Part shown: in pieces, positions 44,263 through 47,900 of the stretch
Position numbering within the stretch: the stretch's first letter is position 1
How the letters are laid out: each line of letters opens with the position of its first letter
Source of the DNA: Chloroflexia bacterium
GTDB taxonomy: Bacteria > Chloroflexota > Chloroflexia > QHBQ01 > JADMIH01
DNA length: 64,000 bases
Assembly (NCBI GenBank): GCA_036388595.1
Contig: DASVRN010000110.1
Coordinates: 8,953 to 72,952, forward strand
Reading direction: 5' to 3'
The notes under the pieces: generated by a model
Databases searched by the model: none
What the model was told of the DNA's origin: nothing
What the model saw: the letters and a program-made list of their open reading frames with translations, nothing else
Program-made: the position numbers and the translations under genes

Positions 44263-44340
44263 TTGCCAGAAAACTTGTAGTACGCCCTGTACAGCACAGC
44301 GGGTGTGGAGGAGGTATCCACCAGCAGAGTGGTAGAACCG
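44263..44340 (-). pseudogene. orphan RHS core-end remnant (GDHLGSTTLLVDTSSTPAVLYRAYYK then a stop)
   Basis: About 90% nucleotide identity to 45880-45955 inside the RHS gene. Confidence 0.6.
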
Positions 44341-44414
44341 AGGTGGTCACCGAAAACGCCTTGCTAGCTATTGGTTATGCACTGTAGGTTTCCGATTGGT
44401 CATAGATCCGAATT

Positions 44415-44810
44415 TTAGGGGTTCTTGCGACCAGCTGGGCTGGTCATAAGGGAAAGCAAGAAGAAAACGGCCGGCCCTGCAATGTACGGCATGGTTCGGC
44501 ATCCGTCTGGATTGAGAGCACTTCTTAAAGGAGCCACACTATCGCACGGGTGTAGCAACAGATCGAAGGTCGCAAAGTAGACCTGGTATTGCACACCACG
44601 AGCATCTGAAGACCACAGAAATGAAAGGAAGACGATGCTTGCCATGACGAACCACACACCCGACGTGACTATGGACAGCACCAACATCAGGAGGACAGCA
44701 CTGATGCCGGAAAGGCGTCGCCAGATCATGATCGAGATCGCTAAGTGACCACCAATGATAGCGGTTGCTAATGTAATGATGAGAATAGCAACCAAGGTAT
44801 CCCTATTCAT
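44415..44810 (-). CDS. small multi-TM membrane protein, candidate cognate immunity protein for the RHS toxin
   Basis: Immediately downstream of the toxin gene. AGGAGG-N7-ATG. 3-4 TM helices. Confidence 0.5.
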   Translation of the reverse strand: MNRDTLVAILIITLATAIIGGHLAISIMIWRRLSGISAVLLMLVLSIVTSGVWFVMASIVFLSFLWSSDARGVQYQVYFATFDLLLHPCDSVAPLRSALNPDGCRTMPYIAGPAVFFLLSLMTSPAGRKNP

Positions 44811-44840
44811 GTAGTTACCTCCTATAGTCTATGCACAGAA

Positions 44841-44880
44841 TGGTCAAGGTGTCATCTCCTCAGAGATGACACCTTGACCA
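44841..44880 (-). promoter_or_regulatory. perfect 18-bp stem / 4-nt loop hairpin between the toxin stop and the immunity gene RBS
   Basis: TGGTCAAGGTGTCATCTC-CTCA-GAGATGACACCTTGACCA. Confidence 0.5.
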
Positions 44881-44911
44881 AGTTGCCCGGTCAGAACCAA
44901 AAGTGCTTCCC

Positions 44912-47900
44912 CTATTTCCAAACTTCGGAGAGGAAGTCTCTGGTCTGCTCGGCCATGAAGCGCGACGTATGATCGTGCCAGGCACTTTGAGCATCAGAGG
45001 GTGGGAATTCGACCCTGTCATGATTTTCATGGTCCGGCATCGCAAGTCCATGCCCCTTCGGATATCTGGGGTCGCTTACCTCCGGGATTCCGTGTATGGG
45101 AGGATGGCTTACCCAGTCGTTCGCAGTATCCACGGTCAGGACATTAACTCCTAGCGTAGAGGCGGCCGATCCCAATTCGTTTATTTTACGCCCAAAACCT
45201 CCGAGAACTACCCAACCTGGCTGGTACGTAACGAGTGGAGCATCGATTAGGACTGCGCTCTTCACTCTGCTATCTGCTCCCTTACCATCTGCTGCCTCGA
45301 GAAGATACTTAGCGACGGCAGCCCCGCCTTCGCTATGTCCTAGCAGATGTATATCGACACCGGGGCCGTGATCAGTAATACCCTCGATGGTCTTCCTGAT
45401 ACCTTCCGCCCCTCCGGCTAGGGTCTTGGCACCTACGTACTTCACATGGGTTTTCGCCCAGACTTCGAAGGGCATAGTAATTGTTTGACCACCGAAGGTA
45501 CCGATCACTCCCCAGCCTTCCTCATCATACATCTTCTTAAGTTGCTCCCCATATTCGCCCCAGTCTGAAGGATCATCCCTGTCGCAAGCAGTGCTAGAGG
45601 TACATCCTTGTACAAAGATGTAGTAGTCTTCAGGACCAAACCCAAGCTGATCAATGAACCTTAACGGGTTACCATGAGCGTACAGGTACCTGTTATAGTC
45701 CATGGCGTTAGATGGATTCTGGGTAGTGGGGTCAGCGGACACAAAGTGAGCAAGCTCTGGATCGTAGTAGCGGGCACCAAAGTACATCAGCTTGGTACCC
45801 GCATCCAGCCTCTGACCTGTGAAGCCCACGCTGGTGCGGGAAGTGCCTGTCTGCCAGGCCACCTCTCCATACGGCTTGTAGTACGCCCTGTACAGCACAG
45901 CGGGTGTGGGGGAGGTATCCACCAGCAGGGTGGTAGAGCCCAGGTGGTCGCCCACCATGCGCTGCTGGCCGTTATCAGCAGGGTAGTTCACCCTCCTCAT
46001 GCCTACCATCTTTGAGCCGAGGAAGTAGAAGTTGGTGTATGGGTGGGCAGTGGCAGACTGGTCAGGGCCAGTCAACTGCTCCTCATACAGGTTACCCACG
46101 TAGAGGGTGCGTTTCACGTCCACGGAGGCAGCCGCCCAGTTTACCGCTGCATCGAACAACCTGCGGCCCTCAGCAGTCTGGTAAATCGCAGCGTCATTGT
46201 ACAGGTAGAAGCCTACCCGCTTGGCCGGGGCTGTAAGGCCATACATCTGAGCCCCGGTTGTATACGCAAAGATCGGAGAGAGGGTAGCGTTGTCGGTAAG
46301 AGTAGCTACCTTGAGGGCATTGGCGTTGGGTATTCCCCACACCACGCCACCTGTCGTGTTCGTACTGACCGTCACATCACCTGTAAACCCATCGGCCACC
46401 GGATGTGCCGGGTCTGCTATCCTCACCGCCAGGTGACCGTAAGCCCCCATCTGGGTCGTTGGGGTGTCGGTCATGCCCATGTCATCCATGAGGTAAGGCT
46501 CGCAATTGATTACGGGCACCGTCACGTTCCGAAGCTTTGTGCCAATCGCCGTTGACATGGAGGTGGCCGAGACGAACACTACACTCTTGCCAGTGGCATC
46601 CGCGCTCGTGAGCAGGTCATCATCTACGACGGTAACGTTATAATCAATGTCTCGCAGCCGGTTACGAATGATAGTGTCGCTGGCATTCATGCTGTTGGGC
46701 GCGTCTACCACAAACAGGGCGCTCTTGGTTACCGGAGCCGCTGCCCAGTTCACCGCTGCATCAAACAACCTCCAGCCATTCTCATTGTGGTAGGCTCCCA
46801 TATCATTGTACATGTAGAAACCTACCCGCTTGGCCGGGGCTGTCAGGCCGTACATCTGGACACCTGCTGCATAAGCAAAGATGGGTGACAGGGTCGAGTT
46901 GTCCCAGAGTGTAGCCGCTTTGATGGCATTAGCGTTGGGTATGCCCCATACCACGCCGCCCACCGTGTTATTGGTCACGGTTACGTCGCCGGTCAACCCT
47001 CCCGCAAGCGGGTGAGATGGGTCTGCTATCCTTACTCCCCAGTGGGCATACGCGCCCATTTGAGTACTGGGAGTGTCGGTCATGCCCATGTCGTCCAGCA
47101 TGTATGGCTCGCAGACGATCACGGGTACCGCCACGTTACGCAGCTTGGTGTTGATAGAACCGGATAGCGAGGTGGCCGAGATGAACACAAGGGTCTTGCC
47201 TGTGGCATCGGAGCTGGCAACCAGGTCGTCATCGGCCACCGTCACCGTATAGCCGAGGCCCTGTAAGTGGCTGCGAATGGCAGTGTCAGCCGTGTTCAAG
47301 CTGGCGGGATTATCTACCACAAACAGCGCGGTCTTTGAGGCTGGTATAGCTAGGGTGGAGGTGATAATGCTCTGGACCAGGCGCTTGCCCTCGCCGTCGT
47401 ACACGAATTCGGTGGTGGTGTTGCCCTCGACTATCCTGGTGACGCGGTTTTGGGGGTCGTAGGTGCGGTTCTGAGTCGAGCCGCCGCGCACGGCGGACGT
47501 TTGGTTGCCCACGTCGTCATACGCGTAGGTGTTGCCCTTGAAGGCGGTGATCCGGTCTACGTGGGTGGCATCGTAGGTGTAATTGTACTGGACTCCCCCG
47601 ATAGTGCGGGAAGTCATCCGCGGCCATTGGTCGAAGCTCACCTGTTCCGAGGTGAACACGGCCGTATTGTTGGTGGTAAAGGAGCGCATGCGCTCAAGCC
47701 CGTCATATGTAAAGTTGTTGGTGAAGGTCGGGTTGGCCGAGGTGCCCCCCGAAACCTGGCTGATCTGGCTGATGTTGCCGTCTAGCTTGTAAGCGACGTT
47801 CAGCTCGAGGTGCGTGGTCGCCCCGGCGGCGGTGGTAACCTTGGTCTTGGTGAGCCAGCCTCGCTTGGTGCTGGCATCATCGTAGGTATAAGCAGTGGTA

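What the first reader, a model, noticed from the sequence alone, without database searches (positions are those of the whole stretch)
44263..44912. The toxin-immunity junction has a perfect 18-bp hairpin and a displaced RHS core-end remnant
A perfect 18-bp stem/4-nt loop (44841-44880) lies between the toxin stop and the AGGAGG of the putative immunity gene. It is well placed to act as an attenuator or RNA stabiliser that sets the toxin-to-immunity expression ratio. Downstream of the immunity gene, a 78-bp piece (44263-44340) about 90% identical to the core-end coding region (45880-45955) encodes GDHLGSTTLLVDTSSTPAVLYRAYYK and then terminates. This is the footprint expected when a new toxin-tip/immunity cassette is swapped in by recombination at the conserved core end and displaces an older tip, of which only the homology stub remains.
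Basis: seen in the sequence. Interest (0 to 1): 0.6.

Follow-up and report, generated by a model that had tools for sequence, protein, structure and literature searches.

The report
Truncated orphan Rhs tip and hairpin
Both features are real, but they are ordinary parts of a bacterial Rhs toxin locus: a leftover piece of an older, displaced toxin module and a terminator-like RNA hairpin. The less ordinary point is that the whole locus sits inside a 10.5-kb transposon-like island that a near-identical strain lacks.

Summary
Both observations are real. The 18-bp/4-nt hairpin (44841-44880) lies 32 nt after the rhs stop. The 78-nt repeat is 44274-44351 versus 45875-45952, 93.6% identical.

A related Chloroflexota MAG (L011) is about 95% identical up to the end of the stub. 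There the same sequence runs on into an intact orphan module (core domain, a 54%-identical paralogous toxin, a homologous immunity gene). So the stub is a truncated displaced tip, the known Rhs C-terminal displacement pattern.

The stub is not a local swap scar. The same stub, a 33-nt linker and a terminal-repeat arm also occur in another MAG (L014) behind a WD40 gene. The whole rhs locus (44052-54560) has TGTCG...CGACA ends with repeated AAAGTTTGCAAC-like sites and starts 34 nt after ogg. It is exactly absent from a strain with 98%-identical flanks (L007). It carries no transposase and shows no target duplication.

A gene-conversion patch shows that the main and stub copies recombine.

The hairpin sits where this genome's terminator-like hairpins sit but has a weak U tract. 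It is identical in L011, and unrelated long hairpins occur in two other toxin-immunity junctions. Three other junctions, one keeping both genes of the pair, have none. Attenuation is plausible but unproven.

The parts
44912..53209 (-). rhs gene, 2765 aa. It has an SpvB-like N-terminal region, YD/RHS repeats, two ~200-aa internal repeat domains, the Rhs core domain and a C-terminal toxin.
   Evidence: ORF list and translation. Pfam SpvB at 1.2e-9 and an RHS_repeat match. TIGR03696 at 2e-22.
45875..45952 (-). Main copy of the 78-nt repeat (GDHLGSTTLLVDTSPTPAVLYRAYYK). It is the last shell segment just before the Rhs core domain, and it contains a patch of stub/orphan-type sequence.
   Evidence: Gene-conversion patch: 7 differences from the L011 main copy and 0 from the L011 orphan over 26 aligned nt.
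45641..45880 (-). Rhs-associated core domain (TIGR03696), running from YKPYGE to NPLRFIDQLG. It is missing from the stub.
   Evidence: Coordinates computed from the translation.
44915..45640 (-). C-terminal toxin domain, 242 aa. It has an alpha/beta-hydrolase fold and is a putative (phospho)lipase or esterase. The GHSEG serine and an Asp are invariant among 11 homologues.
   Evidence: Alignment. AlphaFold model with pLDDT 87.8. Foldseek PDB hits to PlaB phospholipase, lipases and esterases, E from 1e-5. Weak Abhydrolase_1 and lipase sequence hits.
44841..44880 (-). Perfect 18-bp stem with a 4-nt loop, 32 nt after the rhs stop and 17 nt before the Shine-Dalgarno sequence. It is followed by UUCUGUGC, a weak U tract.
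   Evidence: The stem is identical in L011. There is no other copy in any locus held.
44818..44823 (-). AGGAGG Shine-Dalgarno sequence of the immunity gene, 7 nt before the ATG at 44810.
   Evidence: Read from the sequence.
44415..44810 (-). Putative immunity gene, a 131-aa multi-pass membrane protein with no family match.
   Evidence: Homologues follow homologous toxins in L011 main (95%), L011 orphan (33%, E 1e-10) and L013 (29%, E 5e-11).
44274..44351 (-). Stub: the 5' remnant of an orphan rhs module, with weak homology extending up to 44368. It has no in-frame start codon. It is cut after TACTACAAG.
   Evidence: It continues as an intact orphan in L011.
44241..44273 (-). 33-nt linker of unknown origin between the stub and the terminal-repeat arm. 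It is shared with L014 but not with L015.
   Evidence: Alignment A2.
44052..44240 (.). Rhodanese-side end of the island. The terminus is ...CGACA, with about 6 inward-facing copies of an AAAGTTTGCAAC-like motif.
   Evidence: It is homologous to the ends of the L014 and L015 elements.
54360..54560 (.). ogg-side end of the island. The terminus TGTCG lies 34 nt after the ogg stop, with about 6 copies of the same motif in the opposite orientation.
   Evidence: The same kind of end lies 31 nt (L014) and 34 nt (L015) after ogg.
44052..54560 (.). The whole 10,509-bp island. It holds the two ends, about 1.35 kb of non-coding leader, rhs, the immunity gene and the stub. It is exactly absent from L007.
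   Evidence: Empty site in L007, where ogg is followed directly by the rhodanese gene and the flanks are 97.8% and 92.9% identical. GC is 47-60% against 62-67% in the flanks. No ORF with a family match lies in the non-coding parts.

Best explanation
The locus is a Chloroflexia Rhs polymorphic-toxin gene with an alpha/beta-hydrolase (lipase-like) tip and a cognate membrane immunity gene.

The 78-nt stub is the 5' end of an older, displaced ('dissociated') core-fragment/toxin/immunity module. That module was later cut after the YYK codons, probably by a deletion. It now adjoins a 33-nt linker and the terminal-repeat arm of the 10.5-kb transposon-like island that carries the whole locus. The stub is non-coding but still recombines with the main gene: a conversion tract is visible. 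Together the two copies flank the core-domain/toxin/immunity cassette as direct repeats.

The hairpin is most likely a terminator-like RNA stem-loop at the 3' end of the rhs message. Because of its weak U tract it would act as a leaky terminator and/or a barrier to 3' exonucleases. The short immunity cistron would then be expressed by read-through or from its own promoter.

**Shown:** the anatomy, the intact orphan in L011, the shared stub/arm junction in L014, the empty site in L007, and the conversion patch.

**Inferred:** the direction of the truncation (loss rather than gain), the RNA-level role of the hairpin, and the transposon nature of the island.
For: **Stub**
- L011:1-3318 matches window 47593-44276 at 94.8%. 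L011 then continues with PYGE..., the core domain and a toxin 54% identical to the query, followed by an uncalled immunity homologue (33% identity, E 1e-10) and a second stub, DDHMGSTTLIIDI*.
- The orphan in L028 and the second stub in L011 start at the same place, just upstream of VGDHLGS and shortly after an immunity gene.
- Four of the five differences between stub and main copy are synonymous.
- The conversion patch has 7 of 26 sites differing between the window and L011 main copies, and 0 differing between the window main copy and the L011 orphan.
- The pattern matches published C-terminal displacement, including core fragments with no tip (PMC2935791).

**Island**
- Empty site in L007.
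- TGTCG/CGACA termini, with motif clusters found only at the ends.
- Related elements 31-34 nt after ogg carry other cargo in L014 and L015.
- GC is lower than in the flanks.

**Hairpin**
- It lies 32 nt after the stop. Three other long perfect hairpins in the window lie 25-52 nt after the stop of a long ORF, and two of those are followed by T runs.
- z = -4.9.
- Non-homologous long hairpins with 3-5 G.U pairs on the sense strand occur in the L011 orphan and L012 junctions.
Against: - **Direction of change.** The direction at the stub is not proven. L011 could have gained its orphan by recombination at a pre-existing stub. L011 lacks the terminal-repeat arm.
- **Hairpin.** No U tract meets the scan's criterion. 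There are no compensatory changes, because the L011 stem is identical. L013 keeps the gene pair with a 4-nt overlap and no hairpin. L028 has a 114-nt spacer without one. A perfect stem with no G.U pairs is equally compatible with a DNA-level palindrome.
- **Island.** There is no transposase gene in the island or anywhere in the 64-kb window. There is no target-site duplication in any of the three copies. No further copies turned up in four collection scans. In L014 the rhs gene lies outside the small element. The assembly history of the window's island is therefore unresolved.
Confidence: 0.6

Rival explanations
1. The stub is kept because it is useful. With the main copy it forms 78-nt direct repeats around the core-domain/toxin/immunity cassette. 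RecA-type recombination between them can loop the cassette out as a circle, or take in a new one by a single crossover. On this view the stub is a working docking site for tip exchange rather than inert debris.
For: A 35-nt run of perfect identity lies inside the repeat. The conversion tract shows that the copies do exchange sequence. The same stub rides on the right arm of a different element in L014. Jackson et al. proposed circular intermediates. A Logan contig (L005) runs from repeat to repeat with a 30-nt terminal overlap.
Against: A crossover between the two copies would leave an rhs gene ending YYKFSGNPRWLP*, with no core domain, toxin or immunity gene. That product is a dead gene and a sensitive cell. 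The L014 stub carries a 10-nt duplication, so it is decaying. The shape of L005 is the expected de Bruijn graph artefact of a repeat. No alternative tip is seen at the main position in any relative.
Confidence: 0.2
2. The hairpin acts at the DNA level or as a promoter element. It could be a perfect palindrome bound by a dimeric regulator, or it could overlap an immunity-gene promoter, giving the immunity gene expression that is independent of rhs.
For: The stem is perfect, with no G.U pairs or mismatches. A weak sigma-70-like match (ATGACA, 18 nt, TAGACT, 9 of 12) starts in the 3' arm. Orphan immunity genes in arrays need promoters of their own.
Against: The promoter count in the region is close to the shuffle expectation (2 found against 1.0 expected). 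The predicted start site would fall inside the Shine-Dalgarno sequence. No regulator gene lies in the island. The analogous hairpins in L011 and L012 rely on G.U pairs that work only as sense-strand RNA.
Confidence: 0.12
3. The hairpin couples translation. It would bring the last rhs codons next to the immunity Shine-Dalgarno sequence, so that the SD is masked until a ribosome terminates at the rhs stop.
For: In a 141-nt fold, CUCC...AGUUUG in the last rhs codons pairs with UAGACU...GGAG across the base of the hairpin.
Against: The pairing disappears in 177-, 247- and 357-nt contexts. There the SD pairs locally with UUCUGUG or with downstream codons, at P of about 0.4-0.8. No comparative support exists.
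Confidence: 0.05
4. The repeat or the hairpin is an assembly artefact or a chance match.
For: None. The source is a metagenome assembly, and the L014 contig has only about 1.5x coverage by its title.
Against: The region is 100% identical in five other contigs from different samples and assemblers. It is also present in an independent MAG at 95%. The chance expectation is 0.
Confidence: 0.01

Closest known systems
Rhs C-terminal displacement arrays: 'dissociated tips' and orphan rhs-CT/immunity modules (Jackson et al. 2009, PMC2935791; Poole et al. 2011, PMC3150448; effector displacement in Vibrio, PMC5361080)
   Same: There is a full-length rhs gene followed by its immunity gene and then a start-less fragment repeating the 3' part of the core region. 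In L011 that fragment carries its own tip and immunity gene, with a further stub behind it. The tip and immunity region has lower GC than the core. Jackson's Figure 5 already shows downstream core fragments with no tip.
   Different: The host is Chloroflexia, not Enterobacteriaceae, and no T6SS genes are in the window. The orphan toxin is a 54%-identical paralogue of the main toxin, not an unrelated tip. The stub is only 78 nt and ends before the Rhs core domain. It is fused to the end of a transposon-like island, and it recurs on a different element.
Rho-independent terminators and intercistronic stem-loops that set the relative expression of genes in an operon (general knowledge, not tested here)
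   Same: A stable stem-loop lies shortly after a stop codon and upstream of the next cistron's ribosome-binding site. Other genes in this window have hairpins at the same position.
   Different: The stem is unusually long and perfect (18 bp, 50% GC). The U tract is weak (UUCUGUGC). No transcript data are available.
Transposons of the Tn7 / Tn5053-Tn402 / Mu type, with TnsB/TniA/MuA-class DDE transposases (comparison from general knowledge; Tn7-like cargo survey PMC8649781)
   Same: The termini are TGT...ACA. Several subterminal direct repeats at each end face inward. Insertion is at a fixed distance (31-34 nt) and in a fixed orientation after a conserved gene (ogg) in three genomes. Cargo varies between copies. 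A precise empty site exists.
   Different: There is no transposase or targeting gene in the element or the window. No 5-bp target duplication is present. No autonomous relative was found. The Tn7 cargo survey does not mention Rhs.

Membership tests
Rhs polymorphic toxin with displaced orphan module | Full-length gene with YD/RHS repeats and the Rhs-associated core domain | tested here: met
   Pfam SpvB and RHS_repeat matches. TIGR03696 at 2e-22, covering YKPYGE...RFIDQLG.
Rhs polymorphic toxin with displaced orphan module | Variable C-terminal toxin joined after the conserved core end | tested here: met
   Homologues share the core up to NPL(R/N)xID and then carry different tips, for example P0010, P0011 and P0014. 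The tip here has an alpha/beta-hydrolase fold.
Rhs polymorphic toxin with displaced orphan module | Cognate immunity gene immediately downstream | tested here: inconclusive
   Homologous small membrane proteins follow homologous toxins in L011 (twice) and L013. Other toxin homologues have unrelated neighbours (L010, L012, L028). Protection has not been tested.
Rhs polymorphic toxin with displaced orphan module | Downstream start-less fragment homologous to the 3' core region of the main gene | tested here: met
   44274-44351 versus 45875-45952, 93.6% identical, with no in-frame start.
Rhs polymorphic toxin with displaced orphan module | The fragment carries an alternative tip and immunity gene | tested here: not met
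   In the window the fragment stops after YYK and runs into the linker and the end arm. The feature is met at the same position in L011.
Rho-independent terminator | Stable stem-loop shortly downstream of a stop codon | tested here: met
   18-bp stem, 32 nt after the stop.
Rho-independent terminator | U-rich tract directly after the stem | tested here: not met
   The tail is UUCUGUGC, with 4 U in 8. The terminator scan did not call it.
Rho-independent terminator | Transcript 3' ends at the site | not testable with these tools
   No RNA data are available.
Tn7/Tn5053/Mu-type DDE transposon | TG...CA termini with multiple inward-facing subterminal repeats at both ends | tested here: met
   TGTCG...CGACA termini. 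About 6 AAAGTTTGCAAC-like sites per end, and motif clusters nowhere else in the window or the loci.
Tn7/Tn5053/Mu-type DDE transposon | Transposase and accessory genes inside the element | tested here: not met
   No ORF with a family match other than rhs. No transposase in the window. L015 holds only an unrelated transposase-like ORF pair, judged IS5-like by eye from its translation and not scanned.
Tn7/Tn5053/Mu-type DDE transposon | 5-bp target-site duplication | tested here: not met
   The flanks are GGAGA/GATGC (window), GACGT/CGAAA (L014) and TGCAC/TGTGC (L015). The L007 empty site equals left flank plus right flank with one substitution.
Tn7/Tn5053/Mu-type DDE transposon | Presence/absence polymorphism with a precise empty site, and site-specific insertion | tested here: met
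   L007 lacks exactly 44052-54560. The ends lie 34, 31 and 34 nt after the ogg stop in the window, L014 and L015.

The most novel reading that the evidence does not exclude
The rhs/immunity locus is the cargo of a previously undescribed, non-autonomous transposon. Its ends resemble those of the Tn7/Tn5053 type, and it inserts about 31-34 nt downstream of ogg in desert-soil Chloroflexia. The rhs stub has become a fixed part of its right arm. There it serves as a portable homology patch, through which such elements and resident rhs genes exchange tip/immunity cassettes. Transposition and homologous tip displacement would then be combined in one vehicle.
Probability: 0.15. Interest if true: 0.65.

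Novelty: new member of a known kind. Interest (0 to 1): 0.4.

Why it matters
The finding itself extends a well-described mechanism of toxin diversification, Rhs C-terminal displacement, to Chloroflexia. It also gives a clean three-state comparison: an intact orphan, a truncated stub, and an empty site.

The hairpin adds a candidate for how toxin and immunity levels are set, and unrelated long hairpins recur in two other junctions of this toxin family.

The part worth following up is the vehicle. A 10.5-kb island with transposon-type ends has no transposase, inserts at a fixed distance after ogg, and carries different secreted or surface-protein cargo in different genomes. If it is mobile in trans, it would be a route for moving whole Rhs weapons between strains. 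It would also explain why a near-identical strain lacks the locus.

Tried and rejected
- **Translational coupling.** Masking of the SD by the rhs 3' end across the hairpin base appeared in one 141-nt fold but not in three longer contexts. Rejected.
- **Rfam.** Searches of the junction and of the island's non-coding leader gave only sub-threshold microRNA-like hits on the hairpin.
- **Hairpin as a dispersed repeat.** No other copy exists in the window or in any locus held, allowing up to 3 mismatches.
- **Coding potential near the stub.** The 134-aa ORF over the stub and end arm (43946-44350) has no family match and is in the wrong frame for the stub. ORFs in 53210-54560 look spurious.
- **Collection scans.** Exact DNA scans of metagenome contigs for the repeat and for the end arm found nothing, even though identical JGI contigs exist elsewhere. 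Viral scans for both ends found nothing.
- **Immunity homologue search.** It found only the protein itself.
- **Serine- or tyrosine-recombinase island.** The GA dinucleotides flanking the island suggested a serine-recombinase crossover. The L007 empty site is 2 nt too long for that, and L014 and L015 have other flanks. No direct-repeat core is present either. Rejected.
- **A transposon simply inserted into an orphan.** Rejected on geometry: the stub lies inside the element, and the terminus points away from it.
- **Look-ups that returned nothing.** P0002 was not on record. P0006 had no DNA.
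Full report
**Observation.**

On the minus strand the region reads as follows:
- rhs (44912-53209, 2765 aa)
- a 101-nt spacer
- a 131-aa ORF (44415-44810)
- 63 nt
- the repeat
- 224 nt
- the promoter region of a rhodanese gene (43321-43956)

The hairpin is exact. Its arms are 44841-44858 and 44863-44880, 18/18 complementary, with a 4-nt loop. It lies 32 nt after the rhs stop and 17 nt before AGGAGG. RNA folding gives z = -4.9. Shuffled versions of the window almost never produce perfect stems of 11 or more, and none longer than 11.

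The repeat is 44274-44351 versus 45875-45952, with 73/78 identical. The window holds two copies against none expected. Three details in the finding need correcting.
- The coordinates are off by 5-11 nt.
- The frame runs 9 further codons before a stop, and it has no in-frame start.
- The segment lies just before the Rhs-associated core domain, not at its end. TIGR03696 begins at YKPYGE, exactly where the stub stops.

**What the genes are.**

The large protein has an SpvB-like N-terminal region and RHS repeats, plus the Rhs core domain.

Its last 242 aa model confidently (pLDDT 87.8) as an alpha/beta hydrolase. The nearest solved structures are phospholipase PlaB, lipases and esterases. GxSxG and an Asp are invariant among 11 homologues.

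The 131-aa protein matches no family and looks like a multi-pass membrane protein. Homologues of it follow homologous toxins in L011 (main gene 95%; orphan 33%, E 1e-10) and in L013 (29%, E 5e-11). That is the evidence that it is the immunity gene; it has not been tested functionally.

The rest of the window is ordinary chromosome: gyrB, plsX, thymidine kinase, ogg, cell-envelope genes. It contains no transposase. A database name and the related MAGs place the organism in the Chloroflexia.

**The stub is a truncated orphan.**

A search with the C-terminal 399 aa found a 348/356-aa protein that begins at ...LYRAYYRPYGEVAWQ. Its contig, L011 (GCA_030156005.1), is syntenic with the window.
- L011:1-3318 matches window 47593-44276 at 94.8%.
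- Where the window turns into TTTTCTGGCAACC..., L011 continues CCCTATGGAGAGG.... It runs through a complete core domain and a toxin 54% identical to the query.
- An uncalled immunity homologue follows, and then a second tiny stub (…DDHMGSTTLIIDI*). The rhodanese gene comes next.

So the stub is the head of a displaced module that is intact in a relative. The L011 second stub and the L028 orphan begin at the same point, just upstream of VGDHLGS and shortly after an immunity gene.

This is the C-terminal displacement pattern of Jackson et al. Their paper already figures downstream core fragments without a tip.

**The stub is part of a larger, mobile-looking unit.**

Exact look-up of the rhodanese protein found L007, a contig from a very close strain whose flanks are 97.8% and 92.9% identical to the window. 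In L007, ogg is followed directly by the rhodanese gene. The missing segment is window 44052-54560.

The two ends of that segment are TGTCG... and ...CGACA. Each carries about six inward-facing copies of an AAAGTTTGCAAC-like motif. The motif clusters nowhere else in the window or in any fetched locus.

A genome scan with Ogg found two more elements with homologous ends, starting 31 and 34 nt after the ogg stop.
- **L014** is 1.8 kb and carries a WD40 gene.
- **L015** is 7.7 kb. It carries an IS5-like transposase (judged by eye), a 1469-aa secreted-looking protein and a 374-aa protein.

L014 carries the same stub, the same 33-nt linker and the same arm as the window, with the junction TACTACAAG|YTTTCTGGCAACCCTAGG. 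L015 has only the arm. The truncation therefore predates the split between these two elements, and the stub now travels with the arm.

The island has lower GC (47-60%) than its flanks (62-67%), and the tip and immunity genes are lower than the rhs body.

Several facts weigh against a simple transposon.
- There is no transposase.
- There is no target duplication in any copy.
- In L014 the rhs gene lies outside the small element.
- L011 has no arm after its orphans.

I therefore describe the island as transposon-like. I do not file it in a transposon family, and I leave its assembly history open.

**The two repeat copies still interact.**

The window and L011 main genes are 96-99% identical around the repeat, but identity drops to about 91% across it. 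In a patch of 26 aligned nucleotides, the window's main copy differs from L011's main copy at 7 sites. It differs from the L011 orphan at none and from the window stub at one. That is a gene-conversion tract.

A full crossover between the two copies would delete the core domain, the toxin and the immunity gene. I therefore rate a selected 'docking site' role as possible but less likely than a decaying relic.

**The hairpin.**

Of the seven long perfect hairpins in the window, four lie 25-52 nt after the stop of a long ORF. Two of the other three at such positions are followed by T runs. The rhs hairpin is at this same position and ties for the longest stem, but its tail is only UUCUGUGC. The terminator scan does not call it.

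In L011 the stem is unchanged and only the loop differs, so the comparison is uninformative.

Across independent junctions of this toxin family the picture is mixed.
- **Long hairpins present:** non-homologous hairpins of 20 and 23 uninterrupted pairs, with 3-4 G.U pairs on the sense strand, occur in the L011 orphan and in L012.
- **No hairpin:** L013 has overlapping toxin and immunity genes, and L028 and one L010 junction have spacers without one.

The feature is recurrent and probably acts in RNA, but it is not required.

A leaky terminator or 3'-end stabiliser is the best-supported reading. A promoter or operator role is a weaker alternative. SD masking by the rhs 3' end was not robust to context.

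**Verdict.**

The features are new members of known kinds, and the transposon-like vehicle is the element most worth following up.

Noticed in passing
window 44052-54560; L014:10971-12776; L015:10974-18669; L007:1139-1274: The whole rhs locus is a 10.5-kb island with TGTCG...CGACA ends and about six AAAGTTTGCAAC-like repeats per end. It starts 34 nt after ogg and is exactly absent from a near-identical strain. Homologous ends enclose other cargo in two related MAGs. No transposase and no target duplication were found.
   Followed up: partly
window 46128-46390 vs 46737-46999 (period 609 nt); identity dip at 47290-46850: rhs contains two tandem copies, about 78% identical, of a ~200-aa domain with no family match, placed between the YD shell and the core. 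The window and L011 are only about 80% identical across part of the first copy, although they are 96-99% identical elsewhere. This suggests exchange between the copies.
   Followed up: no
L011:5252-5305: A second, more decayed core fragment (QQHLVDDHMGSTTLIIDI*) lies behind the intact orphan module. L011 therefore holds three generations of tips.
   Followed up: partly
window 53973-54360; L015:12321-12704: A ~390-nt non-coding segment next to the ogg-side end is 84% conserved in L015, where it directly precedes a different cargo gene. It may be a shared promoter or leader of these elements.
   Followed up: no
window 6357-6403: Another perfect 18-bp hairpin, with an 11-nt loop, lies in an intergenic region that is not at a long ORF's 3' end. 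Five further perfect hairpins with stems of 11-15 bp are at 1993, 4990, 18852, 38868 and 56729.
   Followed up: partly
L005 (Logan SRR10953936, 1626 nt) = window 45904-44279: This contig starts in the main repeat copy and ends in the stub, with a 30-nt identical overlap. It looks like a circle of the tip/immunity cassette. It is most likely a k-mer graph artefact of the repeat.
   Followed up: partly
L016:10940-11860; L014:13240-13435: The ogg-rhodanese gap is a variable spot. L016 has about 940 nt there, including an unrelated ORF, and part of that sequence reappears in L014 between its small element and rhs.
   Followed up: no
L010 (GCA_038228295.1), 1-7832: Another orphan array has two rhs fragments, one carrying the same hydrolase toxin family. 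It lies next to a phage-type integrase and a Tn3-family transposase. The gene after the hydrolase toxin is unrelated to the window's immunity gene.
   Followed up: partly
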